Under the pieces are notes generated by a model. It did not search any database. It saw nothing but the letters and a program-made list of their open reading frames with translations, and had not been told where the DNA came from. A stretch of 64,000 nucleotides of DNA from Escherichia coli (GTDB taxonomy: Bacteria; Pseudomonadota; Gammaproteobacteria; Enterobacterales; Enterobacteriaceae): the NCBI RefSeq assembly GCF_011045215.1, contig NZ_CP049201.1. One strand, written 5' to 3'. Every line of letters starts with the position of its first letter. The first letter of the stretch is position 1. The translations under genes were made by a program, and so were the position numbers. Positions 18,546 to 58,030 of this stretch are shown piece by piece.

Positions 18546-18584
18546 CAGTGTATTGGTAGCTAGAAAGCCAGGGGCGGTAGCGTG
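18546..18584 (+). promoter_or_regulatory. JUMPstart element with ops site (GGCGGTAGCGTG), RfaH-dependent antitermination signal in the cps leader
   Basis: cagtgtattggtagctagaaagccaggggcggtagcgtg; ops at 18573..18584; about 180 bp upstream of wza. Confidence 0.85.
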
Positions 18585-37502: not shown

Positions 37503-37530
37503 GTTGCTGTTTTCGGTTCCGACAACGGTT

Positions 37531-37716
37531 GCCGGATGCGGCGTAAAACGCCTTATCCATCCTACGGTTCTGTGCTCGGGACCTGTAGGCCTGATAAGAC
37601 GCGTCAGCGTCGCATCAGGCACTGAATGCCGGATGCGGCGTGAACGCCTTATCCGGCCTACGGTTCTGTGCTCGGGTCTTGTAGGCCTGATAAGACGCGT
37701 CAGCGTCGCATCAGGC
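37531..37716. repeat. BIME cluster (multiple REP palindromes) between wzxC and wcaK
   Basis: Repeated gccggatgcggcgtgaacgccttatccggcctacggttctgtgctcggg and gtaggcctgataagacgcgtcagcgtcgcatcaggc units. Confidence 0.85.
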
Positions 37717-37777
37717 AAAAAGCGGCAACGAAAAAAACAAACGCAGCCTCACCTGGCATCAAATTTATGAGGAAAAA

Positions 37778-40285: not shown

Positions 40286-41680
40286 ATGCCATTTAAAAAA
40301 CTCTCCCGACGCACCTTCCTGACGGCAAGCTCCGCGCTTGCCTTCCTCCATACCCCTTTCGCTCGCGCACTTCCCGCCCGACAAAGCGTTAACATTAACG
40401 ACTACAACCCACACGACTGGATCGCCTCATTTAAACAAGCCTTCGGCGAAGGGCAAACGGTCGTCGTGCCTGCCGGATTGGTTTGCGACAATATCAACAC
40501 CGGCATCTTCATTCCTCCTGGCAAAACGTTACACATCCTTGGAAGCCTGCGCGGCAACGGCAGAGGGCGATTTGTCTTACAGGACGGTAGCCAGGTGACA
40601 GGGGAGGAGGGCGGCAGTATGCATAACATCACCCTGGATGTGCGTGGCTCTGACTGCACCATCAAAGGGCTGGCGATGAGCGGCTTTGGCCCGGTAACGC
40701 AGATTTATATCGGCGGCAAAAACAAACGGGTCATGCGCAACCTGACCATCGATAACCTCACTGTCAGCCACGCTAATTACGCCATCTTACGCCAGGGATT
40801 TCATAACCAGATAATCGGTGCCAACATCACCAATTGTAAGTTCAGCGACTTACAGGGCGATGCCATTGAATGGAACGTGGCGATTAACGACAGTGATATT
40901 TTGATATCTGACCATGTCATCGAGCGCATCAACTGTACCAACGGCAAAATCAACTGGGGCATTGGCATAGGCCTTGCGGGAAGCACTTACGATAATAATT
41001 ACCCGGAAGATCAGGCAGTGAAAAACTTTGTCGTGGCGAATATCACGGGATCGGATTGTCGGCAGTTGATCCATGTTGAAAATGGTAAACATTTTGTTAT
41101 TCGTAATATCAAAGCCCGCAATATCACGCCGGATTTCAGTAAGAAAGCAGGTATTGATAACGCCACGGTCGCTATTTACGGTTGTGATAATTTCGTGATT
41201 GATAATATTGAAATGATTAATAGCGCCGGGATGTTAATCGGCTATGGGGTAATTAAAGGCAAATATCTCTCGATACCGCAAAATTTCCGAGTGAATAATA
41301 TTCAACTGGATAATACCCACCTTGCTTACAAATTGCGCGGTATCCAAATCTCCGCCGGGAATGCTGTCTCCTTTGTGGCGCTGACTAACATTGAGATGAA
41401 GCGTGCGTCGCTGGAGTTACACAACAAACCGCAACATCTTTTTATGCGTAATATCAATGTGATGCAGGAATCCTCTGTTGGACCCGCATTGAGCATGAAC
41501 TTCGACATGCGCAAAGACGTTCGCGGCGTCTTTATGGCGAAAAAAGAAACACTGCTGTCTCTTGCAAATGTTCATGCGGTGAATGAAAGAGGGCAAAGCT
41601 CCGTCGATATCGACAGGATTAATCACCATATTGTTAATATGGAAAAGATTAACTTTAGATTGCCAGAACGGAGGGAGTAG
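40286..41680 (+). CDS. wcaM: Colanic acid biosynthesis protein WcaM
   Basis: 464 aa; twin-arginine-like N-terminus [15 protein letters not shown]; matches WcaM. Confidence 0.92.
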
Positions 41681-41837
41681 ATTTGCGACCATTCATAAAC
41701 TTACTGGATATAATGTTCTAAAAGATTATAATCCTCACACTAACTGTTAAAGCTGGGGCTGGGCAGCATTGACTACTCAGGGAAGGTACTCATCTTTATC
41801 TTGTGTTTCTTACGTAACAACCAGACTAAAGTGATTT

Positions 41838-42833
41838 ATGAACGATAACGTTTTGCTCATAGGAGCTTCCGGATTCGTAGGAACCCGACTACTTGAAACG
41901 GCAATTGCTGACTTTAATATCAAGAACCTGGACAAACAGCAGAGCCACTTTTATCCAGAAATCACACAGATTGGCGATGTTCGTGATCAACAGGCACTCG
42001 ACCAGGCGTTAGCCGGTTTTGACACTGTTGTGCTACTGGCAGCGGAACACCGCGATGACGTCAGCCCTACTTCTCTCTATTATGATGTCAATGTTCAGGG
42101 TACCCGCAATGTGCTGGCGGCCATGGAAAAAAATGGCGTTAAAAATATCATCTTTACCAGTTCCGTTGCTGTTTATGGTTTGAACAAACACAACCCTGAC
42201 GAAAACCATCCACACGACCCTTTCAACCACTACGGCAAAAGTAAGTGGCAGGCGGAGGAAGTGCTGCGTGAATGGTATAACAAAGCACCAACAGAACGTT
42301 CATTAACTATCATCCGTCCTACCGTTATCTTCGGTGAACGCAACCGCGGTAACGTCTATAACTTGCTGAAACAGATCGCTGGCGGCAAGTTTATGATGGT
42401 GGGAGCAGGGACTAACTATAAGTCCATGGCTTATGTTGGAAACATTGTTGAGTTTATCAAGTACAAACTGAAGAATGTTGCCGCAGGTTATGAGGTTTAT
42501 AACTACGTTGATAAGCCAGACCTGAACATGAACCAGTTGGTTGCTGAAGTTGAACAAAGCCTGAACAAAAAGATCCCTTCTATGCACTTGCCTTACCCAC
42601 TAGGAATGCTGGGTGGATATTGCTTTGATATCCTGAGCAAAATTACGGGCAAAAAATACGCTGTCAGCTCAGTGCGCGTGAAAAAATTCTGCGCAACAAC
42701 ACAGTTTGACGCAACGAAAGTGCATTCTTCAGGTTTTGTGGCACCGTATACGCTGTCGCAAGGTCTGGATCGAACACTGCAGTATGAATTCGTTCATGCC
42801 AAAAAAGACGACATAACGTTTGTTTCTGAGTAA
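41838..42833 (+). CDS. gne: NAD-dependent sugar epimerase of the Gne/Gnu type (UDP-GlcNAc / GlcNAc-PP-Und 4-epimerase)
   Basis: 331 aa; Rossmann motif LLIGASGFVGTRL; sits between wcaM and galF, as I recall for the O55/O157-type gne gene. Confidence 0.8.
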   Translation: MNDNVLLIGASGFVGTRLLETAIADFNIKNLDKQQSHFYPEITQIGDVRDQQALDQALAGFDTVVLLAAEHRDDVSPTSLYYDVNVQGTRNVLAAMEKNGVKNIIFTSSVAVYGLNKHNPDENHPHDPFNHYGKSKWQAEEVLREWYNKAPTERSLTIIRPTVIFGERNRGNVYNLLKQIAGGKFMMVGAGTNYKSMAYVGNIVEFIKYKLKNVAAGYEVYNYVDKPDLNMNQLVAEVEQSLNKKIPSMHLPYPLGMLGGYCFDILSKITGKKYAVSSVRVKKFCATTQFDATKVHSSGFVAPYTLSQGLDRTLQYEFVHAKKDDITFVSE

Positions 42834-43075
42834 TGCAGACGAGTCAGAGAAAAAAGGACCAGGTTGGACTACGATTATTCGGAAAGAGGTACTGATTAAA
42901 TTATCAGTATGCGGAATTCCGAGTAATCCGAGTAACCCAGATGCTGATGGTGTGTAGTGTTATTCTAAGGTTTAAGCAAAGTTATGCGGAACTAAGCTTT
43001 GGTATATAGCCATAACGTTTGGCTAACCTATGGCAATAATTTACGCACTATCAGCCACTTAGAGGTAGGAAAAGA

Positions 43076-43969
43076 ATGACGAATTTAAAAGCAGTTATAC
43101 CGGTAGCAGGTCTTGGGATGCATATGTTGCCTGCCACTAAGGCGATTCCCAAAGAGATGCTACCGATCGTCGACAAGCCAATGATTCAGTACATTGTTGA
43201 CGAGATTGTGGCTGCAGGGATCAAAGAAATCCTCCTGGTAACTCACGCGTCCAAGAACGCAGTCGAAAACCACTTCGACACCTCTTATGAATTAGAATCT
43301 CTCCTTGAACAGCGCGTGAAGCGTCAACTGCTGGCGGAAGTACAATCTATCTGTCCGCCGGGCGTGACCATTATGAACGTGCGTCAGGGTGAACCTTTAG
43401 GTTTAGGCCATTCCATTTTGTGTGCACGACCCGCCATTGGTGACAACCCATTTGTCGTGGTGCTGCCAGACGTTGTGATCGACGACGCCAGTGCCGACCC
43501 GCTGCGCTACAACCTTGCTGCCATGATTGCGCGTTTCAATGAAACGGGCCGTAGCCAGGTGCTGGCAAAACGTATGCCGGGTGACCTTTCTGAATACTCC
43601 GTTATTCAGACCAAAGAGCCGCTGGATCGTGAAGGCAAAGTCAGCCGCATTGTTGAATTTATCGAAAAACCGGATCAGCCGCAGACGCTGGACTCAGACA
43701 TCATGGCCGTTGGTCGCTATGTGCTTTCTGCCGATATTTGGCCGGAACTTGAACGCACTCAACCTGGTGCATGGGGACGTATCCAACTGACTGATGCCAT
43801 TGCTGAACTGGCGAAGAAACAGTCCGTTGATGCCATGCTGATGACTGGTGACAGCTACGACTGCGGTAAAAAAATGGGCTATATGCAGGCGTTTGTGAAG
43901 TATGGACTGCGCAACCTGAAAGAAGGGGCGAAGTTCCGTAAAGGGATTGAGAAGCTGTTAAGCGAATAA
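43076..43969 (+). CDS. galF: UTP-glucose-1-phosphate uridylyltransferase regulatory paralogue GalF
   Basis: 297 aa, matches GalF. Confidence 0.95.
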
Positions 43970-44227: not shown

Positions 44228-44266
44228 CAGTGCTCTGGTAGCTGTAAAGCCAGGGGCGGTAGCATT
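44228..44266 (+). promoter_or_regulatory. JUMPstart element with variant ops site (GGCGGTAGCATT) in the O-antigen cluster leader
   Basis: cagtgctctggtagctgtaaagccaggggcggtagcattg, about 350 bp upstream of the first O-antigen gene; last ops positions differ from canonical GGCGGTAGCGTG. Confidence 0.75.
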
Positions 44267-44618
44267 GTTCTTGATATTTTTAAGTATAAAAATGACACAT
44301 AAAAATAAAATAATTAGTTATCGGTATGTTTTTAATTGTGTTATTATTGAAAAATATCACCATTAATTATTTAATGCGATAAAGGCCAAATAAATCACTC
44401 ATTTATTTCTACATAGGATAGGGGACTATCAGATGGGAATTAAATAAAAATCCAAGTGCTAAATATTTCAATCTTAAATTCCATTGTAAAAAGTTTAAGG
44501 GATTTTATTCTAAAAAAGAATTGGATGAATTGAAAGTTATTTTGAGCTTAATTTATTAAACTTGAAGTTTTTTTACTGAGTTTTTCTGAAAAATAATTTA
44601 TTGTTAATGGAGCCATAT

Positions 44619-45638
44619 ATGTCAATTTTAGTTACCGGAGGTTGTGGTTATATAGGTGTCCACACAATTTATACGTTAATTTCTCAGGGCTACGATGTTA
44701 TTGTACTGGATAACCTGACTAACTCATCAATAGAGTCATTAGAGAGAGTCAAGTTAATGACAAATCATAACATACCCTTTTATAAAGGAGATGTGGGGAA
44801 TAAAAAAATATTGGTAGACATATTCAATGAGCATCAAATAAAAGCGGTTATGCATTTTGCAGGCTTGAAATCAGTAAGTGAATCTATAAAAAAACCGATT
44901 GAATATTATTCAAGTAACGTAATGCAAACGTTATCACTAATATCTACAATGATAGAGTATAACGTAAAAAGCTTTATCTTTAGTTCATCTGCTACTGTAT
45001 ATGGTAAACCAAAGTTATGCCCTATAAATGAAACTCATCCTATTGGCAAAACTACAAATCCTTATGGAACATCAAAATTAATGATGGAGTTAATGTTGTC
45101 TGATTTGTGTAATGCATATGATGATTTTAATGTGACAATTTTACGATATTTTAATCCAATTGGTGCTCATGAATCAGGTAATATTGGTGAACATCCAAAC
45201 GGTATACCAAATAACCTATTTCCTTATCTTACAAAAGTTGCTATTGGAGAGTATCCTTATTTAAAAGTGTATGGTTGTGATTACCCAACGTCTGATGGTT
45301 CTGGTGTTCGAGATTATATTCATGTAGTTGATCTTGCTGAAGCACATGTAAAAGCTTTATCAAAAAATTCAGAGTCGACTGGGCTAAAAATTTATAATTT
45401 AGGAACCGGAAAAGGATATTCTGTACTCGAAGTTATAGAAGCTTTTGAAAAGATAACTGGAATCAAAATACCATATAAAATTATGCCTCGAAGGGATGGT
45501 GATGTTGCGGAGTGTTGGTCTGATAGCACGAAGGCAAATGATAAATTAGAATGGAAAGCAAACAGAGAATTATATGACATGATTAGAGACGCTTGGAATT
45601 GGCAATCAAAAAATCCTCATGGTTATGATAATACATGA
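44619..45638 (+). CDS. UDP-hexose 4-epimerase, GalE family
   Basis: Start taken at ATG 44619 after ggag RBS (track begins at TTG 44601); ILVTGGCGYIG Rossmann motif and YGTSK catalytic motif; AT-rich codon usage. Confidence 0.8.
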   Translation: MSILVTGGCGYIGVHTIYTLISQGYDVIVLDNLTNSSIESLERVKLMTNHNIPFYKGDVGNKKILVDIFNEHQIKAVMHFAGLKSVSESIKKPIEYYSSNVMQTLSLISTMIEYNVKSFIFSSSATVYGKPKLCPINETHPIGKTTNPYGTSKLMMELMLSDLCNAYDDFNVTILRYFNPIGAHESGNIGEHPNGIPNNLFPYLTKVAIGEYPYLKVYGCDYPTSDGSGVRDYIHVVDLAEAHVKALSKNSESTGLKIYNLGTGKGYSVLEVIEAFEKITGIKIPYKIMPRRDGDVAECWSDSTKANDKLEWKANRELYDMIRDAWNWQSKNPHGYDNT

Positions 45639-46003: not shown

Positions 46004-46399
46004 ATGAGAAGAGTTATCACCTTTGGAACATTCGACGTGTTTCATATTGGACATGTTAATATATTAAAAAGGGCGAAGGAGTTTGGTGATTTGCTGATTG
46101 TGGGAGTTTCATCCGATTCATTAAATTTTTCTAAAAAACAGCGTTATCCAATCTATAGCCAGGAGGAGCGCATTGAGATTATATCCTCACTTAAGTTTGT
46201 AGATCATGTCTTTATAGAAGAATCTTTAGATCTTAAGTTAGAATATATTAGAAAGTATGAGGCAAATTTACTTGTAATGGGAGATGATTGGAAGGGCAGA
46301 TTTGACTGGGTTAAAGATGAGTGCGAAGTTATTTATTTGCCCAGAACACCATCGATATCAACTACCGAGATTATAGAAATTGTCCGGAGAATAAAATGA
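46004..46399 (+). CDS. Glycerol-3-phosphate cytidylyltransferase (TagD/TarD-like; makes CDP-glycerol)
   Basis: 131 aa; ITFGTFDVFHIGHVNIL (HxGH nucleotidyltransferase motif) and ...MGDDWKGRFDW...EVIYLPRTPSISTTEI, closely resembling Bacillus TagD. Confidence 0.85.
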   Translation: MRRVITFGTFDVFHIGHVNILKRAKEFGDLLIVGVSSDSLNFSKKQRYPIYSQEERIEIISSLKFVDHVFIEESLDLKLEYIRKYEANLLVMGDDWKGRFDWVKDECEVIYLPRTPSISTTEIIEIVRRIK

Positions 46400-46471: not shown

Positions 46472-47773
46472 ATGACGTCATGTAATAACTTTAAAAAGTA
46501 TAAAACATTATCTTTATTATCCGTGTGTTTATCCTCTATTCGTGTCTTTTTGGGGCCAATAACATTACTTGTACTAGCCAAAAACCTTTCCACTGAGGAA
46601 CTAGGATTTTATTATGCTTTTTTTTCGTTAACAGCAATGGCACAGTTGCTGGAAGTTGGGATGTCTAGCGTATTGAAACAGTATTATAGCCATTCTTATG
46701 CTATTCATGATATCAGTGAAAAAAATATAAAAATATCGAACTATTTTAACTTTTCAATCTATTGGTATTTAATATTATCAATACTTTTTTTTATATTGGG
46801 AGGGGTGGTGTCATATGTTATGTTTAATGATTATAACGGAATAGTTAACTGGAAATTACCATGGTTTTTTTTGCTTTTTGTTTCATGTACTAATTTATTA
46901 GTATTGCCCTTAAATGCAATGCTTGATGGAACACAAAGGCAACAATTATTGATGAAAGCTAATATTGTTAGTCAGTTAATGATAGCGATATCATTATGGC
47001 TGACAATTTATTTAGGCTTGGGGCTATATTCTCTTGGTCTATCACAATTGGTAGGAATATTATTTTTTTTACTGTCAGTTTTTATATTTAATAAATGTAG
47101 ATTCCAGTTCATAGAAATACATAAAAAAAACTTTTCATTTAAAACAGTATTTAATGAGTTGTGGCCGTTATTGAAAAAAACTAGTATCGTATGGTTTCTT
47201 GGTTATTTCTACTGGAACGGTTTTAATATAATATCATTTAAATATCTTGGTGCAGAGATCGCAGGCTTCGTTGGTATGTCGATGTCAATTATGCGAGCGG
47301 GACAGAATATAGCAATATCTATTTTGAATTCTCAGATGACATTGTATGCAAGCAATATTGCGATGGGAAAGATTGATGAAGCAAGAAGAGTATTTAAGAA
47401 ATATTTTATCATTTCATTTTTGTTATTAATTTCTGGTTACTCAATATTTTATATTTTCTATTATGTTAAGCCTGATTTTTTCTTGTTTAAGAAGGTCCTG
47501 CCCTTAGAACAAATGATTTATGTGTCAATATTTTTTGCCTTTACATTTATAATATCAGGAACTGAAACTTTTATTCGTTGTTTTAAAGTGGAGAAGTTCG
47601 TTATCACTCAGACAATCAATTCAATTTTAACTCCATTCTTATTTGTTTTGGGGCTTAACTTGCATTATCAATATTTTTGTTTACCAATAATATCTGTACT
47701 GATAGTGTCAATCTTAACGTTATATATAAGTCGACGTTTTTACACGGGGTATTCGAATGCAAAAAATACTTAA
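46472..47773 (+). CDS. wzx: O-antigen flippase Wzx (polysaccharide biosynthesis protein family)
   Basis: 433 aa, many predicted TM helices; N-terminal Wzx-like segment FLGPITLLVLAKNLSTEELGFYY. Confidence 0.7.
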   Translation: MTSCNNFKKYKTLSLLSVCLSSIRVFLGPITLLVLAKNLSTEELGFYYAFFSLTAMAQLLEVGMSSVLKQYYSHSYAIHDISEKNIKISNYFNFSIYWYLILSILFFILGGVVSYVMFNDYNGIVNWKLPWFFLLFVSCTNLLVLPLNAMLDGTQRQQLLMKANIVSQLMIAISLWLTIYLGLGLYSLGLSQLVGILFFLLSVFIFNKCRFQFIEIHKKNFSFKTVFNELWPLLKKTSIVWFLGYFYWNGFNIISFKYLGAEIAGFVGMSMSIMRAGQNIAISILNSQMTLYASNIAMGKIDEARRVFKKYFIISFLLLISGYSIFYIFYYVKPDFFLFKKVLPLEQMIYVSIFFAFTFIISGTETFIRCFKVEKFVITQTINSILTPFLFVLGLNLHYQYFCLPIISVLIVSILTLYISRRFYTGYSNAKNT

Positions 47774-48929
47774 GTATATAATGAAATTAATGATGTGGAG
47801 TATTTATCCTATCGGTTTTTTAATTAAAAGGGATAAAAGCATTTGGCTTTTCGGTAGTTATAGCGGTTTTACTGATAATAGTCGATATTTATTTGAATCT
47901 ACCACTAAAAAGAATGATGTAAGATGCATTTGGATATCTGATGATATAAAGCTGATAAAAAAAATTAGATGTAAAGGTTATGAGGCATATTACAAATATA
48001 GTGTTAAAGGTATATATTTTTGTTATATTGCAAAGGTGTATATATATTCAAATTATGTATCAACGATAAACTTTTATACATCTGCAGGCGCGGTATTGGT
48101 AAATTTATGGCATGGGACGCCACTTAAAAAAATCGAATATGATATATCTAAATCTCCTTTATTTAATTATTTTAAAGGAGCCTCATTTATAATTAAAATA
48201 TTGATGCCTGAGAAACATAAAAAGTGTAATTTCATTCTTGCTCCGAGTCAATTTGTTTATGATTATTCATTTAAAAGTGCATTTAGGGTGTATGATATGC
48301 AATATGCCATTATTGCTGATCCACCTAGGATATCTAATCTCTTATCAAGAGCCTATCACAAAGTGAATAATGATAAGAATTCAATTAAAAAAACAAAGAA
48401 AACATTTTTATATGCACCAACATGGAGAGATGATCGCTCGGATTTTATAAGTATTTCAGGTTTAAATTTCAACGAAATTAATAATTTTCTATTAAAAAAT
48501 AACGCGTATTTACAAATCAGGTTGCATCCTAATACAACTTTAAATATTGATATGAGTGAAATGGAAAATATTCACATTGTTGATAATTATGAACCAGCTG
48601 AAGATAGTATGCTAAATTCTGATTTTCTCATAACTGATTACTCTTCAATATATTTTGACTACCTCTATCTTAATAGACCTATAATCTTCTTCCCATTTGA
48701 TCTTGAAAAATATACCGCATCGCGTGATTTTTATTTGAGTTATAACGAAGCAACTCCAGGGGTTAAAGTATATAATCAAGGTGAATTAATCCAGGAGATG
48801 GATAACCTATTGAAGGGCATTGACAATTGGATGAACTATCGAAAGGAGCTTGCTGAAAAATTCTGTTCGCTCGAAAGACGTAACGATGATTATATCATAA
48901 AAAAAATTAAAAAAGGTGTATCTGAATGA
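47757..48929 (+). CDS. CDP-glycerol glycerophosphotransferase (TagF/TagB-like)
   Basis: 390 aa; YAPTWRDD motif typical of the TagF family; directly downstream of the tagD-like gene. Confidence 0.7.
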   Translation: MQKILKYIMKLMMWSIYPIGFLIKRDKSIWLFGSYSGFTDNSRYLFESTTKKNDVRCIWISDDIKLIKKIRCKGYEAYYKYSVKGIYFCYIAKVYIYSNYVSTINFYTSAGAVLVNLWHGTPLKKIEYDISKSPLFNYFKGASFIIKILMPEKHKKCNFILAPSQFVYDYSFKSAFRVYDMQYAIIADPPRISNLLSRAYHKVNNDKNSIKKTKKTFLYAPTWRDDRSDFISISGLNFNEINNFLLKNNAYLQIRLHPNTTLNIDMSEMENIHIVDNYEPAEDSMLNSDFLITDYSSIYFDYLYLNRPIIFFPFDLEKYTASRDFYLSYNEATPGVKVYNQGELIQEMDNLLKGIDNWMNYRKELAEKFCSLERRNDDYIIKKIKKGVSE

Positions 48930-49732
48930 ATCTTGGTAAAATTATAAATTATATAGAGTCTAAGGTTATTAGTATAAATTTTGATTTCAATCATTTAGCT
49001 GGCTATTTAAGTCGTGATGAGCGAGATAAAATAACCTTAAAACATCTAAGCAGTATTATTGATAGAAGAAAAAAACATCCATCTGTTTCTGCTATATACA
49101 GAGTGAAAAATGGAGCTCAATTTATTGAACTATCTATTCTTTCAATAGCTGCATTTTGTCGTGAAATAATTATTGTAGACAATAATTCAACAGATGATAC
49201 TTTACTAATAGTAGAACGTCTTAAAAGCGAACTTCAGGAAATATGTGAAATTAAAATCTATCAGTATACTAGTCAGGTCGCTTTGGCGGGTAAGAATTAT
49301 AATGATGAAATCAGAAAATATCCTGAGCGGTCATTGGCAAAATATTATAACTATGCTTTTTCATTGGCAACATCGGAATTCTTAATGAAGTGTGATGCTC
49401 ATTATATATTCACACCTGCGGGTATAGATAGTATACAACGAAAATTAATTTCAAATCATAAGTCAGTTGATGTTATATGTTATCGTGGCACCGAAGTATT
49501 TGGAGCCATGTTAGATTGTGAACCCTATCTAATACGGAAAAATAGTTTTAAATATTACGACACTCAATATTTTGAACGTTTGACATTAAACAAGAAGAGA
49601 AGTTTTATTCAAAAAATTAAAGGGAGAATTTCATCACCTTGCTTTATACATGTTAAACGTTTGAGTTATGTTAAGTCAGTTCATCTATGTGAAATAAACC
49701 CTGTGGAGTATATGTATAAAAATGATAATTAA
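48926..49732 (+). CDS. Putative glycosyltransferase (GT-A fold, family 2-like)
   Basis: 268 aa; SAIYRVKNGAQFIELSILSIAAF...IIVDNNSTDDT resembles the GT2 N-terminal signature; start overlaps previous stop. Confidence 0.55.
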   Translation: MNLGKIINYIESKVISINFDFNHLAGYLSRDERDKITLKHLSSIIDRRKKHPSVSAIYRVKNGAQFIELSILSIAAFCREIIIVDNNSTDDTLLIVERLKSELQEICEIKIYQYTSQVALAGKNYNDEIRKYPERSLAKYYNYAFSLATSEFLMKCDAHYIFTPAGIDSIQRKLISNHKSVDVICYRGTEVFGAMLDCEPYLIRKNSFKYYDTQYFERLTLNKKRSFIQKIKGRISSPCFIHVKRLSYVKSVHLCEINPVEYMYKNDN

Positions 49733-50951
49733 ATTACATAATATTTGCGTAACTGGGAAGAATGATAATCATGACGGGTCTTTTCGCCTACAAATATACT
49801 ATTTCCTATGTATTTTAATATCTATTCTATTTTTCAGTGCATACCCTTTGGTATCGTTACCTCTTATAGCTCTTTCAAGTCCATTTGTTAATAACTATGC
49901 AAGATGGACTATGTCACTATTAATGATTTTTTATTTTATTTTATTATACTCATCTATTACGCCTTTTTCAGACATAGCAGAGTATATGCTTATCTATAGA
50001 GGAGTAACCGATGTTGATATATTTAGTTTTGGTAGGTTTGGTGGTGGAATCGAGATCTTCATATTAGCTCTCATGCGCTTGGTGTATTTTATATCCGATG
50101 GCAATGAATATCTTTTTTTATTTTTTTGCTTTACTATTATTCAAATATTTCTTTTTGTATTTTGTTATCGTGTTAATCGTCGTTTATCATGTTTATATTT
50201 TTTAGTATTTAATCTTTCATATGCTTATTATTCTTTTAATGCATATTTTTTACGAAGCATGTTATCCGCGGTTTTTTTAATTAATGCCTTTTTGTTTATT
50301 TCTAAAAAAAAGTATGTGTATTATTTTTTTGCAATTATATCGCATTTGTCATCCGTCCTATATATAGGAGTATGGGAATATTTAAGGGCAAGAAATAAAA
50401 AATTAAAAATATGGGTTGCTAGTATGGCAACTGTAACTATTATATGTTGTTTTATTTTTTTGCGAGATAGGATTGAATTTTATTTATTTAAAAGCTCTGG
50501 AAATTCGATGGGGTATGTACAAGTTGTAACCATTGCTTTTAATTATATTTTGTGTTTGTTGTTATTATTCTTTTCAAATGCAAGAAAAGAATTGTCAACT
50601 CAAAGAATAATATTGTTTTTGACTTTTTTCTTTATCTTGGCCTTGGTAACTTATAAAATACCACAAAATTTTGGGATAAGAATCTCTATTTTGCTTTACG
50701 CACTATCACCGTTTTTCTTGTATCCACTTCTTACCTCCTGCAATGTAACAATATTAAATAAGATCAAATCGTTGTCTCTTTATATGATTGTTAACTGTTG
50801 CTTTCTCTTTGTTGTGTTATATAAGGGCGATGATATTTCAAATCACATGCGTTCAAATCCATTAGATACTAGTTTTATTGATTTATTAATAAAGGACATA
50901 GATTATTTTGTTAAAGGATATTATCCAGTAATATATTCTAGAGACGAATAA
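49722..50951 (+). CDS. wzy: O-antigen polymerase Wzy (putative)
   Basis: 409 aa, very hydrophobic and F/Y/I/L-rich polytopic membrane protein with no strong family signature, as is typical for Wzy. Confidence 0.6.
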   Translation: MIIKLHNICVTGKNDNHDGSFRLQIYYFLCILISILFFSAYPLVSLPLIALSSPFVNNYARWTMSLLMIFYFILLYSSITPFSDIAEYMLIYRGVTDVDIFSFGRFGGGIEIFILALMRLVYFISDGNEYLFLFFCFTIIQIFLFVFCYRVNRRLSCLYFLVFNLSYAYYSFNAYFLRSMLSAVFLINAFLFISKKKYVYYFFAIISHLSSVLYIGVWEYLRARNKKLKIWVASMATVTIICCFIFLRDRIEFYLFKSSGNSMGYVQVVTIAFNYILCLLLLFFSNARKELSTQRIILFLTFFFILALVTYKIPQNFGIRISILLYALSPFFLYPLLTSCNVTILNKIKSLSLYMIVNCCFLFVVLYKGDDISNHMRSNPLDTSFIDLLIKDIDYFVKGYYPVIYSRDE

Positions 50952-51238: not shown

Positions 51239-51961
51239 TTGAGTGATATCAAATTGAATATTGAGATCGGTTTATCAGCGCTGAATTCAGGAATTTATAA
51301 AATTAAATTTCGTAATGATTATAATTATCTTATTATTCATCAGATTACTGATGAATGTGATTACTCTGATTATGTGGCATCTTTCCCTGAAAATGTTAGA
51401 TACATATCTTCATATGAGTCTGGGTTGTCCAAAAGTCGAAATATGGCCATTGAAAATGCAAAATACGATTATCTTTGGTTAATGGATGATGATATGGAAA
51501 TAGATGATGCGGCTTGGGATTATCTGACGAAATTTATTAGTGATTATAAAAATAGTCCTTTGCTGGTTGTTTCTCATTCATTGGCAAAAAAGTATAATAA
51601 TGAAAAAGAGAGGATTAAAAGATTGAATCCTATAACTGCTGCGGGAATTTGTTCTGTAGATATGATATTAAAAATTTCAGCACTGGACGGTATTAGATTT
51701 AACTCAGATTTTGGGTTAGGAGCTAAATATCCTTCCGGTGAGGAATATATTTTTGCATGTGATTTGATGAGAGCTGGAAAAAAAATATATAAATCTAATA
51801 AAATTTGCTCGAATCATCCTGACACGACTTCTAGTGATAAAACATATCCAAATAAAGACGCTTTTAGTACGAAGAAGAAAATGTTTAAAGTCGCAAATGG
51901 GAAATACTTAGGGAGCATTTTGTATATTGCTTTTGTTGTCAAAAAATTACTATATAAATAA
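51239..51961 (+). CDS. Putative glycosyltransferase family 2 (possible TTG start)
   Basis: 240 aa; DxD-like motif in KYDYLWLMDDDMEIDD; ORF opens right after an in-frame stop at 51224 and first in-frame start is TTG 51239, so start is uncertain. Confidence 0.55.
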   Translation: MSDIKLNIEIGLSALNSGIYKIKFRNDYNYLIIHQITDECDYSDYVASFPENVRYISSYESGLSKSRNMAIENAKYDYLWLMDDDMEIDDAAWDYLTKFISDYKNSPLLVVSHSLAKKYNNEKERIKRLNPITAAGICSVDMILKISALDGIRFNSDFGLGAKYPSGEEYIFACDLMRAGKKIYKSNKICSNHPDTTSSDKTYPNKDAFSTKKKMFKVANGKYLGSILYIAFVVKKLLYK

Positions 51962-52005: not shown

Positions 52006-53052
52006 ATGCCTATGAAAAAAGTATATATTTTTATTGATGATATATCCCGTTCCGGTGGCACAGAACGAGTTGCGACATTTCTCTCTAATCAAATGTTTTT
52101 ATCCGGATTTTCAGTCACACTAATATCATTAGCATTAGAAGGAGGGAATACATACTATCCGCTGCAACCCGGAGTCAAGTTAGAGGTTTTAAGTGAATCA
52201 ACATTATACGAATTGTTTCTTTTTTTAAGAAAAAATTCATGTGATGTGTTGATTTCTGTTTCCATGGGTAGTTTATCGTTTAAGCTTGCATGTTTACATT
52301 TTCTATTACGATTAAAATCTCGTCTTATTTTAAGTGAGCATGTGGCTTTTGAATCCTCATCAAAGTTCATTCGTTCTCTAAAATGGTTAAGCTATCAATT
52401 CGCTGATGATCTTGTATTATTGACAAAGCATGATTATAAATTGCTTAAGTCAAATGTTAGGGCTCATACTCACGTTATCAATAATGCTAGTGGTTTCGAA
52501 CAATTATCTGAATCTGTTCTTATTCAAAAGCAAAAGATAGTATTAGCAGTGGGACGTTTAACTTATCAGAAGGGGTTTGATAGGTTAATTCGTATTTGGG
52601 CTTCCATATCGGACAATCACGGTTGGGTTTTACGGATCGTAGGGGATGGAGAATTGCGTTCAGAACTACAAAAAATGATTGTTGACCTGAATGTTACACA
52701 TAATGTCCAACTTATACCAGCAACAAAATGTATAGAACAAGAATATACTAATGCAGCTATATTAGCTATGACTTCTCGCTATGAAGGACTACCATTGGTT
52801 CTTATAGAGGCTAAATCTTTTGGATTAGCAGCAGTCGCTTTTGATTGTAAAACAGGTCCTGCTGAAATTATTCATCACAAAAAAGATGGGTTCTTGATTA
52901 CTGAAGATAATGAACCTGAATTTTCATATCGTCTTCAGTCTTTAATGATCGATGATGTTTATCGAAACAAAATACAAAGTATGGCCTTAAGAAATGCTAA
53001 TGATTATTCTGTTGAAAAAATAAGTCGGCAGTGGTTGGAGTTAATATCATGA
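52006..53052 (+). CDS. Glycosyltransferase family 4 (GT-B fold)
   Basis: 348 aa; C-terminal motif RYEGLPLVLIEAKSFGLAAVAFDCKTGPAEII typical of GT4 donor-binding region. Confidence 0.75.
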   Translation: MPMKKVYIFIDDISRSGGTERVATFLSNQMFLSGFSVTLISLALEGGNTYYPLQPGVKLEVLSESTLYELFLFLRKNSCDVLISVSMGSLSFKLACLHFLLRLKSRLILSEHVAFESSSKFIRSLKWLSYQFADDLVLLTKHDYKLLKSNVRAHTHVINNASGFEQLSESVLIQKQKIVLAVGRLTYQKGFDRLIRIWASISDNHGWVLRIVGDGELRSELQKMIVDLNVTHNVQLIPATKCIEQEYTNAAILAMTSRYEGLPLVLIEAKSFGLAAVAFDCKTGPAEIIHHKKDGFLITEDNEPEFSYRLQSLMIDDVYRNKIQSMALRNANDYSVEKISRQWLELIS

Positions 53053-53837
53053 GTAGTTATGAAACAGTATCTATAATCATGCCTACGTTTAATGCTGCAT
53101 CTTATATTTCGTATAGCATCATTTCTGTAATTGAACAATCATATAATGATTGGCATTTATATATAATAGATGATGGTTCAACTGACAATACCGCACATGA
53201 AATATCTAATTTTACCGATCTGCGAATAACATATGTAATGCTTCCTATCAATAGTGGAGTTGCAAATGCTAGAAATATAGGTATTAAAATGGCAAAAGGG
53301 AAATTTATTGCGTTTCTTGATAGTGATGACATTTGGGAAAAAGAAAAATTATCCTTGCAAATCCCTTTACTCGAAAAAGGATATGATGTAGTTTGTTCAA
53401 ATTATGCCATTTTTAAAAATGAACCAAAAAAAATAATCGGTTCTCGAACTGCACCACAACAGATCACCTATTCGCGTTTGTTACGCGGTAATTGTATCGG
53501 CAATTTAACGGGGATTTATAACCGAGAACGACTAGGTAAATGCTTACAGGAAGAATGTGGACATGAAGACTATCTAATGTGGTTACAGTTGGTAAAGCTT
53601 TCTGGTAGCGCTTATTGCATACAGAAAAATTTAGCCCGGTATCGAGTTACGGAACATTCAGTATCATCAAATAAATTAAAAGCAGCATTTTGGCAATGGA
53701 ATATATATCGTAAAAAACTCAAGCTTAATATTTTGAGCAGTATATATTACTGGTGTAATTATTCTTTTTACGCATTTATGCACATGTTAAAAATGAAGTT
53801 TCATGTGAATAAAAGTAATCTAATATATAAGAGATAA
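53049..53837 (+). CDS. Glycosyltransferase family 2
   Basis: Start set at ATG 53049 (MSSYETVSIIMPTFN; track begins at 53031); classic GT2 N-terminus ...IIDDGSTDNT; ATGA overlap with upstream gene. Confidence 0.8.
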   Translation: MSSYETVSIIMPTFNAASYISYSIISVIEQSYNDWHLYIIDDGSTDNTAHEISNFTDLRITYVMLPINSGVANARNIGIKMAKGKFIAFLDSDDIWEKEKLSLQIPLLEKGYDVVCSNYAIFKNEPKKIIGSRTAPQQITYSRLLRGNCIGNLTGIYNRERLGKCLQEECGHEDYLMWLQLVKLSGSAYCIQKNLARYRVTEHSVSSNKLKAAFWQWNIYRKKLKLNILSSIYYWCNYSFYAFMHMLKMKFHVNKSNLIYKR

Positions 53838-54085: not shown

Positions 54086-55492
54086 ATGTCAAAGCAACAG
54101 ATTGGCGTCGTCGGTATGGCAGTGATGGGGCGCAACCTTGCGCTCAACATCGAAAGCCGTGGTTATACCGTCTCTATTTTCAACCGTTCCCGTGAGAAGA
54201 CGGAAGAAGTGATTGCCGAAAATCCAGGCAAGAAATTGGTTCCTTACTTTACGGTAAAAGAGTTTGTTGAATCTCTGGAAACGCCTCGTCGCATCCTGTT
54301 AATGGTGAAAGCAGGTGCAGGCACGGATGCTGCTATTGATTCTCTCAAGCCATACCTCGATAAAGGTGACATCATCATTGATGGTGGTAACACCTTCTTC
54401 CAGGACACCATTCGTCGTAACCGTGAGCTGTCTGCAGAAGGTTTTAACTTTATCGGTACTGGTGTTTCCGGTGGTGAAGAAGGTGCACTGAAAGGACCTT
54501 CCATCATGCCTGGTGGCCAGAAAGAAGCCTATGAACTGGTTGCACCGATCCTGACCAAAATCGCCGCAGTGGCTGAAGATGGGGAGCCATGTGTTACCTA
54601 TATTGGTGCCGATGGTGCTGGTCACTATGTGAAGATGGTTCACAACGGTATTGAATACGGAGATATGCAACTGATTGCTGAAGCCTATTCTCTGCTAAAA
54701 GGTGGCCTGAACCTCACCAACGAAGAACTGGCGCAGACCTTTACCGAGTGGAATAACGGTGAACTGAGCAGCTACCTGATCGACATCACCAAAGATATCT
54801 TCACCAAAAAAGATGAAGACGGTAACTACCTGGTTGATGTGATTCTGGATGAAGCTGCAAACAAAGGTACGGGTAAATGGACCAGCCAGAGTGCGCTGGA
54901 TCTCGGCGAACCGCTGTCGCTGATTACCGAGTCTGTGTTTGCACGTTATATCTCTTCTCTGAAAGATCAGCGCGTTGCCGCATCTAAAGTTCTCTCTGGC
55001 CCGCAAGCGCAGCCAGCAGGCGACAAAGGTGAGTTCATCGAAAAAGTTCGCCGTGCGTTGTATCTGGGCAAAATCGTTTCTTACGCCCAGGGCTTCTCTC
55101 AGCTGCGTGCGGCGTCTGAAGAGTACAACTGGGATCTGAACTACGGCGAAATCGCGAAGATTTTCCGTGCTGGCTGCATCATCCGTGCGCAGTTCCTGCA
55201 GAAAATCACCGATGCTTATACCGAAAATCCGCAGATCGCTAACTTGCTGTTGGCTCCATACTTCAAGCAAATTGCCGATGACTATCAGCAGGCGCTGCGT
55301 GATGTTGTTGCTTATGCAGTACAGAACGGTATCCCGGTTCCCACCTTCGCCGCTGCGGTTGCCTATTATGACAGCTACCGTGCCGCTGTTCTGCCTGCGA
55401 ACCTGATCCAGGCACAGCGTGACTATTTCGGTGCACATACTTATAAGCGCATTGATAAAGAAGGTGTGTTCCATACTGAATGGCTGGATTAA
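54086..55492 (+). CDS. gnd: 6-phosphogluconate dehydrogenase (decarboxylating)
   Basis: 468 aa; [15 protein letters not shown] Rossmann motif; matches Gnd. Confidence 0.96.
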
Positions 55493-55730: not shown

Positions 55731-56906
<1,176 letters not shown>

Positions 56907-56945: not shown

Positions 56946-57049
56946 TGTTCCCTTTGTAATAATTCATTTTTTTTATCATTTATCCTATAGCATTCATGGC
57001 GATTATCGCTAAACTATGGCGACTTAAAATTATTTCGTCCGTTAGGGTA

Positions 57050-58030
57050 ATGATGAGAGTAGAAAATAATAATGTTTCTGGGCAAAACCATGACCCGGAA
57101 CAGATTGATTTGATTGATTTACTGGTGCAGTTGTGGCGTGGCAAGATGACAATTATCATCTCTGTCATTGTGGCTATTGCCCTGGCTATAGGGTATCTGG
57201 CCGTTGCCAAAGAAAAGTGGACTTCCACAGCTATCGTTACTCAACCTGATGTGGGGCAAATCGCTGGTTATAACAATGCCATAAATGTGATTTATGGTTC
57301 GGCAGCGCCGAAAGTGTCTGAGATCCAGTCGATGTTAATTGGTCGTTTCAGCACGACATTTTCTGCATTAGCAGAAACGCTGGATAATCAGGAAGAACCT
57401 GAAAAACTGACCATTGAGCCTACCGTTAAAAATCAGTCATTACCTTTAGCGGTTTCTTATGTGGGTGAAACACCTGAAGGTGCGCAGAAACAGCTGGCGA
57501 AGTATATCCAGCAAGTTGACGACCAGGTAAATGAAGAACTGGAACAAGACCTGAAAGACAACATCGCGCTGCAAATGAAAAACTTGCAGGATTCTCTGAA
57601 GACCCAGGAAGTGGTTGCGCAGGAGCAGAAAGATCTGCGTATCCGTCAGATTCAGGAAGCGTTGCAGTATGCGAATCAGGCGCAGGTGACAAAGCCGCAG
57701 ATTCAGCAGACACAGGACGTAACCCAAGATACTATGTTCCTTTTGGGGAGCGAAGCGCTGGAGTCGATGATTAAGCACGAGGCGACTCGTCCGTTGGTGT
57801 TCTCATCAAACTACTATCAGACTCGTCAAAACCTGCTGGATATCGACAATCTTGACGTTGATAAACTTGATATTCATGCTTACCGCTATGTAATGAAACC
57901 GACGTTACCTATTCGTCGCGATAGCCCGAAAAAGGCAATTACCTTGATTCTGGCGGTGCTGCTGGGCGGCATGGTTGGCGCGGGGATTGTGCTGGGGCGT
58001 AACGCTCTGCGTAATTACAACGCGAAGTAA
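57050..58030 (+). CDS. wzzB: O-antigen chain-length determinant Wzz (polysaccharide co-polymerase)
   Basis: Track ORF 56996..58030; start set at ATG 57050 (MMRVENNNVSGQNHDPEQIDLIDL) after taggg RBS; two TM segments flanking a coiled-coil periplasmic region. Confidence 0.9.
   Translation: MMRVENNNVSGQNHDPEQIDLIDLLVQLWRGKMTIIISVIVAIALAIGYLAVAKEKWTSTAIVTQPDVGQIAGYNNAINVIYGSAAPKVSEIQSMLIGRFSTTFSALAETLDNQEEPEKLTIEPTVKNQSLPLAVSYVGETPEGAQKQLAKYIQQVDDQVNEELEQDLKDNIALQMKNLQDSLKTQEVVAQEQKDLRIRQIQEALQYANQAQVTKPQIQQTQDVTQDTMFLLGSEALESMIKHEATRPLVFSSNYYQTRQNLLDIDNLDVDKLDIHAYRYVMKPTLPIRRDSPKKAITLILAVLLGGMVGAGIVLGRNALRNYNAK

What the first reader, a model, noticed from the sequence alone, without database searches (positions are those of the whole stretch)
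41838..42833. Extra epimerase gene (gne) inserted between wcaM and galF, plus a second GalE-family epimerase inside the O-antigen cluster
Seen in sequence: a 331-aa Rossmann-fold epimerase sits in the colanic acid / galF junction, where K-12 has none as I recall, and another 339-aa GalE-family epimerase opens the O-antigen cluster. Established: gne upstream of galF accompanies GalNAc-containing O-antigens. Two epimerases suggest two different 4-epimerised sugars (for example GalNAc plus Gal) in the repeat unit.
Basis: partly seen in the sequence, partly recalled or inferred. Interest (0 to 1): 0.3.

Follow-up and report, generated by a model that had tools for sequence, protein, structure and literature searches.

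The report
Known gnu plus gne epimerase pair
This is an ordinary, already-described arrangement in an E. coli O81 strain: one enzyme turns the lipid-bound starter sugar GlcNAc into GalNAc, and a second, unrelated-looking one most likely makes the soluble donor UDP-GalNAc for later positions in the O-antigen repeat.

Summary
A 331-aa SDR-fold ORF lies at 41838-42833 between wcaM and galF, where K-12 has only a 174-bp spacer. A 339-aa GalE-family gene (44619-45638) is the first gene of the O-antigen cluster, which is serogroup O81.

The interpretation needs correcting. The upstream protein is 331/331 identical to the O157:H7 enzyme. That enzyme was once called Gne and is now named Gnu (GlcNAc-PP-undecaprenol 4-epimerase). 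It is not a GalE-family member: it scores 71 bits against a 262-bit cutoff and shares 26% identity over the Rossmann half only. About 24% of complete E. coli genomes carry it (1306 of 5426).

The in-cluster protein is a true GalE-family enzyme. At the position of E. coli GalE Tyr299 it has Cys299, as in human GALE, B. longum GalE and the Y299C mutant. I therefore predict that it also interconverts UDP-GlcNAc and UDP-GalNAc, which makes it a Gne.

The two enzymes differ in the carrier of their substrate (undecaprenyl diphosphate versus UDP), not necessarily in the sugar they make. The same pairing is published for O86, O125 and Yersinia pseudotuberculosis O6/O7, where GalNAc is both the first and a later sugar.

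I could not retrieve the published O81 structure, so the sugar composition remains unconfirmed here. Novelty: already known. Interest: low.

The parts
40286..41680 (+). wcaM, the last gene of the colanic acid cluster (left flank)
   Evidence: ORF. RefSeq annotation of the collinear O81 genome. 95.7% nucleotide identity to K-12 up to window 41694.
41695..43058 (+). gnu-bearing alternative segment (1364 bp) that replaces 142 bp of spacer found in gnu-negative strains such as K-12, O6 and O23
   Evidence: blastn against K-12 shows homology ending at 41694 and resuming at 43059. The K-12, O6 and O23 spacers are near-identical to one another and unrelated to this segment. The full-length segment is present in 1306 of 5426 complete genomes.
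41838..42833 (+). gnu: GlcNAc-PP-undecaprenol 4-epimerase (formerly 'gne' or Z3206-type), 331 aa. NAD motif G9xxG12xxG15; catalytic S109, Y132, K136.
   Evidence: 331/331 identical to O157:H7 Sakai ECs_2847. RefSeq product name. Below the GalE cutoff, 71 vs 262 bits. Motifs. No transmembrane segment.
41705..41732 (+). Sigma-70-like site (TGGATA-16-TATAAT, 10/12) about 105 bp upstream of gnu. Possibly its own promoter; a lead only.
   Evidence: The number of such sites in the region is not above the shuffle expectation (9 found vs 7.3 +/- 2.4).
43076..43969 (+). galF (UTP-glucose-1-phosphate uridylyltransferase paralogue), the conserved left boundary gene of the O-antigen locus
   Evidence: 94% nucleotide identity to K-12 galF.
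44255..44263 (+). ops element (GGCGGTAGC) of the JUMPStart sequence. It marks the start of the O-antigen transcription unit and the left edge of the O81-specific DNA.
   Evidence: Exact match. In gnu-positive genomes of other serogroups, homology to the window stops at query position 2564, which is window 44263.
44619..45638 (+). gne (annotated galE): GalE-family UDP-hexose 4-epimerase, 339 aa. Catalytic S124/Y149/K153; sugar pocket K84/N199/C299. Predicted group-2 enzyme acting on UDP-GlcNAc/GalNAc as well as UDP-Glc/Gal.
   Evidence: TIGR01179 444 bits against a 262 cutoff. 51% ungapped identity to K-12 GalE. Cys at the Tyr299 position, and best PDB hits are B. longum GalE (6k0g) and E. coli Y299C (1lrk). 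Residue table.
46004..46399 (+). TagD-like glycerol-3-phosphate cytidylyltransferase (makes CDP-glycerol)
   Evidence: TIGR01518 134 bits (below the 165 cutoff) and PF01467.
46472..47773 (+). wzx, O81 O-unit flippase
   Evidence: RefSeq 'O81 family O-antigen flippase' at the collinear position.
47757..48929 (+). TagF/TarF-like CDP-glycerol glycerophosphotransferase (adds glycerol phosphate to the O-unit). The RefSeq start corresponds to window 47781.
   Evidence: PF04464 E=3.5e-58. TarF 133 bits, below cutoff.
48926..49732 (+). Glycosyltransferase (weak GT2 match)
   Evidence: PF00535 E=1.3e-8. RefSeq 'glycosyltransferase'.
49722..50951 (+). wzy, O81 O-antigen polymerase
   Evidence: RefSeq 'O81 family O-antigen polymerase'. 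EpsG family.
51239..51961 (+). GT-A fold glycosyltransferase (RefSeq start corresponds to window 51254). 34% identical to the first gene of the O38 cluster.
52006..53052 (+). GT4 glycosyltransferase and candidate GalNAc transferase. Its best family matches are the alpha-1,4-GalNAc transferases PglH and PglJ (below cutoff). 36% identical to a GT of the O102 cluster.
   Evidence: NCBIfam PglH E=2.3e-42 and PglJ E=1e-27. tblastn against L006.
53031..53837 (+). WbdN-like GT2 with a DxDD motif (DSDD). Predicted to add Glc or Gal in beta-1,3 linkage to the lipid-linked first HexNAc, the step straight after Gnu. RefSeq start corresponds to window 53049.
   Evidence: 48% identity to the first gene of the O157 cluster, the wbdN position. 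55% and 40% identity to GT2s of the gnu-positive O102 and O38 clusters. DxDD rule from PMC4202792.
54086..58030 (+). Right flank: gnd (54086-55492), ugd (55740-56906) and wzzB (ORF 56996-58030)

Best explanation
The window is the colanic acid, O-antigen and his region of an E. coli O81 strain.

The 331-aa gene between wcaM and galF is gnu. Its product is an NAD-dependent SDR that epimerises C4 of the lipid-linked starter sugar, converting GlcNAc-PP-undecaprenol (made by WecA) into GalNAc-PP-undecaprenol.

The 339-aa gene that opens the O81 cluster is a GalE-family enzyme with an enlarged sugar pocket (Cys299 in place of Tyr299). It is best called gne. It supplies UDP-GalNAc from UDP-GlcNAc and can probably also interconvert UDP-Glc and UDP-Gal.

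Proposed order of events: WecA, then Gnu, then the WbdN-like GT2 adding a beta-1,3-linked Glc or Gal to GalNAc-PP-Und. Three more glycosyltransferases follow, at least one using the UDP-GalNAc made by Gne. Glycerol phosphate is added from CDP-glycerol (TagD-like and TagF-like enzymes). Wzx then flips the unit, Wzy polymerises it and WzzB sets chain length.

What is shown here: the protein identities, the motifs, the genomic layout and the distribution across genomes. What is inferred: the enzyme activities in this strain, the order of the transferases, and that the O81 unit starts with GalNAc and contains at least one more GalNAc.

My confidence by part: gnu identity about 0.97; gne capable of using UDP-GlcNAc about 0.8; GalNAc both first and internal in O81 about 0.7.
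For: gnu: 331/331 identity to the O157:H7 enzyme, whose activity on GlcNAc-PP-Und and inactivity on UDP-GlcNAc are reported in Cunneen 2013 citing Rush 2010. It sits at the same locus between wcaM and galF and carries the RefSeq product name. It has S109/Y132/K136 and GxxGxxG. Its similarity to GalE is confined to residues 4-173.

gne: above the GalE family cutoff, with Cys at the Tyr299 position and K84/N199 retained. A small residue at this position gives activity on N-acetylated substrates: eGalE Y299C gains 230-fold activity on UDP-GalNAc, human C307Y loses it, and Neisseria S299F/F300S behave the same way (PMC6668579; PMC5349592). All 9 polysaccharide-locus homologues sampled have Cys or Ser, and the gal-operon GalE has Tyr.

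Context: all 10 O81 genomes carry gnu-galF-gne contiguously. gnu plus gne also occur together in O102 and O38, while O6 and O23 have gne without gnu, matching the published rule (review PMC7685785). The last GT is 48% identical to the O157 wbdN-position GT2 and has DxDD. The GT4 is most like the GalNAc transferases PglH and PglJ. O81 is absent from the review's lists of O-antigens that contain both GlcNAc and GalNAc, so if any GalNAc is present it must be the first sugar.
Against: I could not read the O81 repeat-unit structure (Zdorovenko 2018 is not held), so the presence and number of GalNAc residues is unverified here. Cunneen 2013 states that GalE and Gne cannot be rigorously separated by sequence alone. 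The PglH/PglJ matches are far below the curated cutoffs (145 vs 600 bits). DxDD GT2 enzymes accept either GlcNAc or GalNAc acceptors. gnu lies in the shared flank outside the O81-specific cassette, so physical linkage alone could explain why it co-occurs. [quoted passage not shown]
Confidence: 0.8

Rival explanations
1. One reading: the two epimerases provide two different sugars. The upstream one would make GalNAc, and the in-cluster GalE's main job would be to make UDP-Gal for a galactose residue.
For: RefSeq labels the in-cluster gene 'galE: UDP-glucose 4-epimerase'. All UDP-Glc-binding and catalytic residues are kept. Group-2 enzymes handle UDP-Gal and UDP-GalNAc about equally. The DxDD GT2 may well add Gal.
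Against: 5391 of 5426 E. coli genomes already have the gal-operon galE for UDP-Gal. The Tyr-to-Cys change is exactly the one that opens the pocket to N-acetylated substrates. Every polysaccharide-locus copy sampled has it, including O6 and O23, where the review assigns it the gne role. Cunneen 2013 advises reading a clade A gene in an O-antigen cluster as gne when galE exists elsewhere.
Confidence: 0.1
2. gnu is a passenger. It sits in the conserved flank and travelled with galF by recombination, while O81 synthesis actually starts from GlcNAc and does not need it.
For: gnu lies outside the O81-specific DNA, whose left edge is at the ops element, and outside the JUMPStart operon. Cunneen 2013 lists 10 cases of a gnu or gne gene present beyond need. 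Strain 98208 keeps gnu next to a degraded cluster while carrying O8-family wzm/wzt export genes.
Against: All 10 O81 genomes, from human, chicken, pig and horse, keep an intact gnu. gnu presence matched structural expectation in 104 of 115 serogroups. The cluster's last GT is related to GTs of three other gnu-positive clusters, including the O157 wbdN-position GT2.
Confidence: 0.06
3. The upstream protein is what its old name says, a soluble UDP-GlcNAc 4-epimerase, so the two genes are redundant sources of UDP-GalNAc.
For: That was the original assignment. The Sakai record still calls it 'gne, UDP-galactose 4-epimerase', and one cluster member is still named UDP-N-acetylglucosamine 4-epimerase. 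The title of Guo 2007 implies overlapping UDP-hexose activities in vitro.
Against: [quoted passage not shown] The protein scores 71 bits against the 262-bit GalE cutoff. Its nearest families are lipid-substrate SDRs: HpnA, 3-beta-HSD, NSDHL and OleD. The C-terminal substrate domain shows no similarity to GalE.
Confidence: 0.03

Closest known systems
E. coli O157:H7 Gnu (Z3206 / ECs_2847), GlcNAc-PP-undecaprenol 4-epimerase, clade D of Cunneen 2013
   Same: Identical protein (331/331), at the same position between wcaM and galF in the same orientation.
   Different: No difference in the protein. The downstream cluster differs: O157 has a single GalNAc and no in-cluster GalE homologue, whereas O81 has one.
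E. coli O86:B7 gne1/gne2 pair (also O125, and Y. pseudotuberculosis O6/O7)
   Same: The same two-gene logic and layout: gnu upstream of galF, plus a clade A epimerase as the first gene after galF. The published interpretation is GalNAc as both the first and a later sugar. An unnamed locus with this layout (strain 98208) was sampled.
   Different: The clade A protein of that sampled locus is only 56.5% identical and has Ser rather than Cys at the gatekeeper position. The O86 cluster makes a fucose-containing unit, while O81 makes a glycerol-phosphate-containing one.
Group-2 GalE enzymes: Bifidobacterium longum GalE (PDB 6k0g) and human GALE (1ek6)
   Same: These are the best structural-database matches (398 and 381 bits). 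The sugar pocket K/N/C is identical (K84, N199, C299 in E. coli numbering).
   Different: Their roles are catabolic or housekeeping. This enzyme sits in an O-antigen operon downstream of the JUMPStart/ops element and is presumably dedicated to supplying donor sugar.
E. coli K-12 GalE (group 1, gal operon)
   Same: 51% identity, ungapped over 336 residues, with the same catalytic triad.
   Different: K-12 GalE has Tyr299, the window protein Cys299. K-12 galE is in the galETK operon rather than the O-antigen cluster.
WbdN of E. coli O157 (GT2 with DxDD; a beta-1,3-glucosyltransferase per Gao 2012, cited in PMC4202792)
   Same: The last glycosyltransferase in the window is 48% identical to the GT2 at the O157 wbdN position and keeps the DxDD motif.
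   Different: The donor (Glc or Gal) and the acceptor (GalNAc or GlcNAc) are not determined. The gene is last in the O81 cluster but first in the O157 cluster.

Membership tests
Gnu (clade D UndPP-GlcNAc 4-epimerase, EC 5.1.3.26) | Sequence falls with the characterised O157 enzyme | tested here: met
   331/331 identity to O157:H7 Sakai ECs_2847. Public sources give the Gnu product name to this exact sequence.
Gnu (clade D UndPP-GlcNAc 4-epimerase, EC 5.1.3.26) | Gene located just upstream of galF, after the colanic acid cluster | tested here: met
   wcaM 40286-41680, gnu 41838-42833, galF 43076-43969. Same order in O157, O102 and O38.
Gnu (clade D UndPP-GlcNAc 4-epimerase, EC 5.1.3.26) | Extended-SDR cofactor and catalytic motifs (GxxGxxG; Ser...YxxxK) | tested here: met
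   G9-G12-G15 and Y132-K136. S109 aligns with GalE S124.
Gnu (clade D UndPP-GlcNAc 4-epimerase, EC 5.1.3.26) | Acts on GlcNAc-PP-undecaprenol and not on UDP-GlcNAc | not testable with these tools
   Reported for the O157 enzyme by Rush 2010, as summarised in PMC3682973. The primary paper is not held.
Gnu (clade D UndPP-GlcNAc 4-epimerase, EC 5.1.3.26) | O-unit has GalNAc as its first sugar | tested here: inconclusive
   The O81 structure paper is not held. Indirect support comes from the WbdN-like DxDD GT and from O81's absence from the review's mixed GlcNAc+GalNAc lists.
GalE/Gne (clade A UDP-hexose 4-epimerases) | Scores above the curated GalE family cutoff over its full length | tested here: met
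   For the 339-aa protein: TIGR01179 443.7 vs 262.3 and NF007956 448.6 vs 394. For the 331-aa protein this is NOT met: 71.4 vs 262.3, over residues 5-170 only.
GalE/Gne (clade A UDP-hexose 4-epimerases) | Catalytic Ser124, Tyr149, Lys153 and sugar-binding Lys84, Asn179, Asn199 | tested here: met
   All are conserved in the 339-aa protein.
Gne subtype (accepts UDP-GlcNAc/GalNAc; Ishiyama group 2) | Small residue (Cys or Ser) at the E. coli GalE Tyr299 position | tested here: met
   Cys299 in an ungapped alignment. Rule taken from PMC6668579 and PMC5349592.
Gne subtype (accepts UDP-GlcNAc/GalNAc; Ishiyama group 2) | Lies in a polysaccharide gene cluster while a separate gal-operon galE exists in the genome | tested here: met
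   It is the first gene after the ops element, inside O81-specific DNA. The gal-operon galE is present in 5391 of 5426 E. coli genomes, though this was not checked for this particular strain because the gal operon lies outside the window.
Gne subtype (accepts UDP-GlcNAc/GalNAc; Ishiyama group 2) | Measured epimerase activity on UDP-GlcNAc | not testable with these tools
   Needs an enzyme assay.
GalE group 1 (UDP-Glc/Gal only) | Bulky residue (Tyr, Leu or Phe) closing the C5 pocket | tested here: not met
   The window protein has Cys299.
GnaB (clade B UDP-GlcNAcA 4-epimerase; WbpP/TviC type) | Clade B sequence and an adjacent gnaA/wbpO dehydrogenase gene | tested here: not met
   The TviC model scores 75.5 against a 760 cutoff for the 339-aa protein and is not listed for the 331-aa protein. 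There is no wbpO-like gene in the cluster.

The most novel reading that the evidence does not exclude
The most novel reading that remains open is that the O81 unit does not follow the textbook rule. For example, Gne might mainly feed an extra UDP-Gal demand, or gnu might be dispensable. O81 would then be one of the few exceptions to the gnu/gne-versus-structure correlation. Separately, no Gnu-type enzyme has a solved structure (best PDB match 67 bits), so how an SDR epimerase recognises a polyprenyl-diphosphate-linked sugar is still open. That question concerns the whole family, not this locus.
Probability: 0.05. Interest if true: 0.25.

Novelty: already known. Interest (0 to 1): 0.08.

Why it matters
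Practically, it matters for annotation. The gene upstream of galF should be called gnu, not gne. The first gene of the O81 cluster, labelled galE in RefSeq, is most likely a gne. Read correctly, the pair predicts that the O81 repeat unit starts with GalNAc and contains further GalNAc. That is useful for serotype-to-structure inference, glycoengineering and phage-receptor work. It opens no new biological question, because this arrangement has been described and explained since 2010-2013.

Tried and rejected
1. I tried repeatedly to obtain the published O81 repeat-unit structure. Zdorovenko 2018 is not held by PubMed id or DOI. The Liu 2020 review's tables and supplements are not held. Papers using strain HS3-104 do not restate the structure. 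Two further text searches found nothing. Cunneen's Table S2 predates the O81 structure.

2. The primary papers Rush 2010 and Bengoechea 2002 are not held. Their results are cited through Cunneen 2013, PMC6668579 and PMC5349592.

3. I considered and rejected the idea that the 331-aa protein is a GalE-family enzyme, that either protein is a GnaB, and that gnu is a simple insertion. It is an alternative 1364-bp segment replacing 142 bp.

4. The TTG start at 44601 (345 aa) was rejected in favour of the ATG at 44619, which matches RefSeq and aligns from residue 1 of GalE.

5. The promoter and terminator scan gave no more sites than the shuffles, so the putative gnu promoter is only a lead.

6. I did not run structure prediction, fold search or the large protein-database searches. 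No plausible result would have changed the verdict.

7. The locus of strain 98208 could not be assigned to O86. It is a degraded, IS-interrupted fucose-type cluster beside O8-family wzm/wzt genes.
Full report
OBSERVATION. The reported ORF exists exactly as described. It is an ATG-initiated 331-codon frame at 41838..42833 (+), between wcaM (40286..41680) and galF (43076..43969). Downstream of galF the GC content falls from about 0.50 to about 0.30 for roughly 10 kb, then rises again at gnd. This is the usual signature of an E. coli O-antigen cluster. The first gene of that cluster is a 339-aa protein counted from the ATG at 44619 (the ORF extends to a TTG at 44601).

SEROGROUP AND CONTEXT. The 10-kb cluster matches ten complete E. 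coli genomes at 99.6-100% identity, and RefSeq names their wzx and wzy 'O81 family'. The whole window is ordinary chromosome: mdtBA, yeg genes, asmA, the colanic acid cluster wza-wcaM, the 331-aa gene, galF, the O81 cluster, gnd, ugd, wzzB and the his operon. Besides the GalE homologue, the O81 cluster encodes:
- a TagD-like glycerol-3-phosphate cytidylyltransferase;
- wzx;
- a TagF/TarF-like CDP-glycerol glycerophosphotransferase;
- wzy;
- four glycosyltransferases.
It has no other sugar-nucleotide pathway genes.

THE UPSTREAM GENE IS gnu. The protein is 331/331 identical to O157:H7 Sakai ECs_2847, which lies at the same position between wcaM and galF. Cunneen et al. 2013 (PMC3682973) summarise the history. 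The gene was first called gne. Rush et al. 2010 then showed that the O157 enzyme has no activity on UDP-GlcNAc and instead converts UndPP-GlcNAc to UndPP-GalNAc. The clade (clade D) was renamed gnu. RefSeq already gives the corresponding product name to this gene in every genome I looked at, and the exact sequence occurs on at least 1000 public contigs.

It is not a GalE-family protein. It scores 71 bits against a cutoff of 262 for TIGR01179, and only over the N-terminal Rossmann half. It shares 26% identity with the in-cluster epimerase over residues 4-173 and nothing detectable beyond. Its nearest named families are SDRs that work on lipid substrates: HpnA, 3-beta-HSD, NSDHL and OleD. That fits a polyprenyl-linked substrate, although this link is my inference. 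It keeps GxxGxxG (residues 9-15) and the Ser109/Tyr132/Lys136 triad. The likely chemistry is therefore the usual transient C4 oxidation and re-reduction with bound NAD. It has no transmembrane segment. No Gnu-type enzyme has a solved structure; the best PDB match scores 67 bits.

ANATOMY OF THE gnu POLYMORPHISM. Homology to K-12 ends 14 bp after the wcaM stop (41694) and resumes 17 bp before the galF start (43059). The intervening 1364 bp replace 142 bp of a spacer that is near-identical in K-12, O6 and O23 strains. It is therefore an alternative allele of the junction, not a clean insertion. The full-length segment is present in 1306 of 5426 complete genomes, about 24%. Its GC content (0.45) resembles the flanks, not the 0.30 of the O-antigen cassette.

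The ops element of the JUMPStart sequence lies at 44255-44263, between galF and the in-cluster epimerase. In gnu-positive genomes of other serogroups, homology stops exactly at 44263. So gnu lies in the shared flank and outside the O-antigen transcription unit, while the GalE homologue is the first gene of the serogroup-specific operon. A sigma-70-like site at 41705-41732 could serve gnu, but such sites are no more frequent here than in shuffled sequence.

THE IN-CLUSTER GENE IS A GalE-FAMILY ENZYME WITH AN OPEN POCKET. It scores 444 bits on TIGR01179 and aligns without gaps to K-12 GalE at 51% identity. The catalytic Ser124/Tyr149/Lys153 and the sugar-binding Lys84/Asn179/Asn199 are all kept, but Tyr299 is replaced by Cys. 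Its best PDB matches are the broad-specificity B. longum GalE (6k0g, which has Cys299) and the E. coli Y299C mutant (1lrk), both ahead of wild-type E. coli GalE.

The literature is consistent that this position is the main determinant of specificity. Group 2 and 3 enzymes have Cys or Ser here, and group 1 enzymes have Tyr or Leu. E. coli Y299C gains 230-fold activity on UDP-GalNAc, and human C307Y loses it (PMC6668579). The equivalent Ser/Phe swaps switch Neisseria GalE between bifunctional and monofunctional forms (PMC5349592).

As a local test I extracted GalE homologues from nine E. coli polysaccharide loci: O81, O128, O102, O38, O6, O23, an unnamed fucose-type cluster and two kps capsule loci. 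All nine have Cys or Ser, and the gal-operon GalE has Tyr. Cunneen 2013 cautions that GalE and Gne cannot be formally separated by sequence, but recommends reading a clade A gene inside an O-antigen cluster as gne when galE exists elsewhere. The gal-operon galE is present in 5391 of 5426 genomes. I therefore call this gene gne, a predicted bifunctional (group 2) enzyme. RefSeq's 'galE' label is conservative rather than wrong.

WHY TWO EPIMERASES. The two enzymes differ in the carrier of their substrate, not necessarily in the sugar they produce. For O86 (gne1 upstream of galF, identical to the O157 protein; gne2 the first gene after galF), both genes are needed, because GalNAc is both the first and the second sugar. 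The same explanation is given for O125 and for Y. pseudotuberculosis O6/O7. Across 115 serogroups, gnu and gne presence matched structural expectation in 104 and 105 cases respectively. My sample agrees with the rule. O102 and O38 have both genes. O6 and O23, which the review lists as GlcNAc-initiated with an internal GalNAc, have gne but the gnu-less spacer. All ten O81 genomes carry gnu-galF-gne together.

SUPPORT FROM THE TRANSFERASES. The last glycosyltransferase (53031..53837) is 48% identical to the first gene of the O157 cluster, the wbdN position. It is 55% and 40% identical to GT2 genes of the gnu-positive O102 and O38 clusters. It carries the DxDD motif (DSDD). Brockhausen 2014 links that motif to GT2 enzymes adding Gal or Glc in beta-1,3 linkage to GalNAc or GlcNAc, and names WbdN among them. 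That is the step expected right after Gnu. The GT4 (52006..53052) is most similar to the GalNAc transferases PglH and PglJ, well below their cutoffs, and 36% identical to a GT of O102. In Cunneen's Table S2, O102 has one main-chain and one side-chain GalNAc. These are hints rather than proof.

WHAT REMAINS OPEN. I could not read the O81 structure paper. One indirect deduction is possible. The Liu 2020 review lists by name the O-antigens that contain both GlcNAc and GalNAc, and O81 is not among them. So if O81 has any GalNAc, it has no GlcNAc, and GalNAc must be the initiating sugar. The main rivals, ranked in the report sections, are:
- the in-cluster enzyme chiefly supplies UDP-Gal;
- gnu is a hitch-hiker in the flank;
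- the upstream enzyme is a soluble UDP-GlcNAc epimerase after all.
Each would be settled by the published structure or by simple knockouts and assays.

VERDICT. The feature is a textbook gnu plus gne pair in an O81 strain. Novelty: already known. Interest: low.

Noticed in passing
window 37503-37777 (wzxC-wcaK intergenic); L013 37407-37777: The spacer holds tandem REP/BIME-like units of about 96 bp. The window has two copies (275-bp spacer), while the otherwise collinear O81 strain LR-03 has three (371 bp).
   Followed up: partly
window 18573-18581 (+) and 7106-7114 (-): Two further exact ops motifs (GGCGGTAGC). The first lies about 100 bp upstream of wza and is presumably the colanic acid JUMPStart. 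The second lies inside the yegD coding region and is probably a chance match. Three matches in 64 kb exceed the shuffle expectation of 0.42.
   Followed up: partly
L006 13656-14675 (O102 strain ECE204): Cunneen 2013 Table S2 scores O102 as 'gne missing'. This O102-typed genome nevertheless has a GalE homologue with a Cys gatekeeper as the last gene before gnd, plus gnu upstream of galF.
   Followed up: no
L009 and L015 (strain 98208, NZ_CP173533.1): This strain keeps wcaM-gnu-galF-galE(Ser gatekeeper)-GT-gmd-fcl-gmm, followed by IS and retron fragments and more O-antigen genes. It also carries O8-family wzm/wzt ABC-transporter genes beyond wzzB. This looks like a degraded Wzy-type cluster that retains gnu and gne next to an O8 cluster.
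   Followed up: partly
L011 11785-12798 and L012 3661-4686: GalE homologues with small gatekeepers (Cys, Ser) also sit in kps-type capsule regions next to ABC-transporter genes, IS elements and, in one case, a sulfotransferase gene.
   Followed up: no
window 52006-53837 vs L006 11824-13617: O81 and O102 share an adjacent two-gene module, a GT4 followed by the WbdN-like GT2 (36% and 55% protein identity). This suggests a common reducing-end disaccharide or trisaccharide.
   Followed up: partly
window 44619-45638: RefSeq/PGAP labels this and every other O-antigen-cluster copy 'galE: UDP-glucose 4-epimerase GalE', even though the gatekeeper residue predicts UDP-GlcNAc/GalNAc activity. This is a systematic annotation gap rather than an error.
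   Followed up: yes
window 44251-44273 (+): The terminator-like hairpin reported by the pattern scan overlaps the ops/JUMPStart element. It is likely part of the conserved JUMPStart structure rather than a terminator.
   Followed up: no
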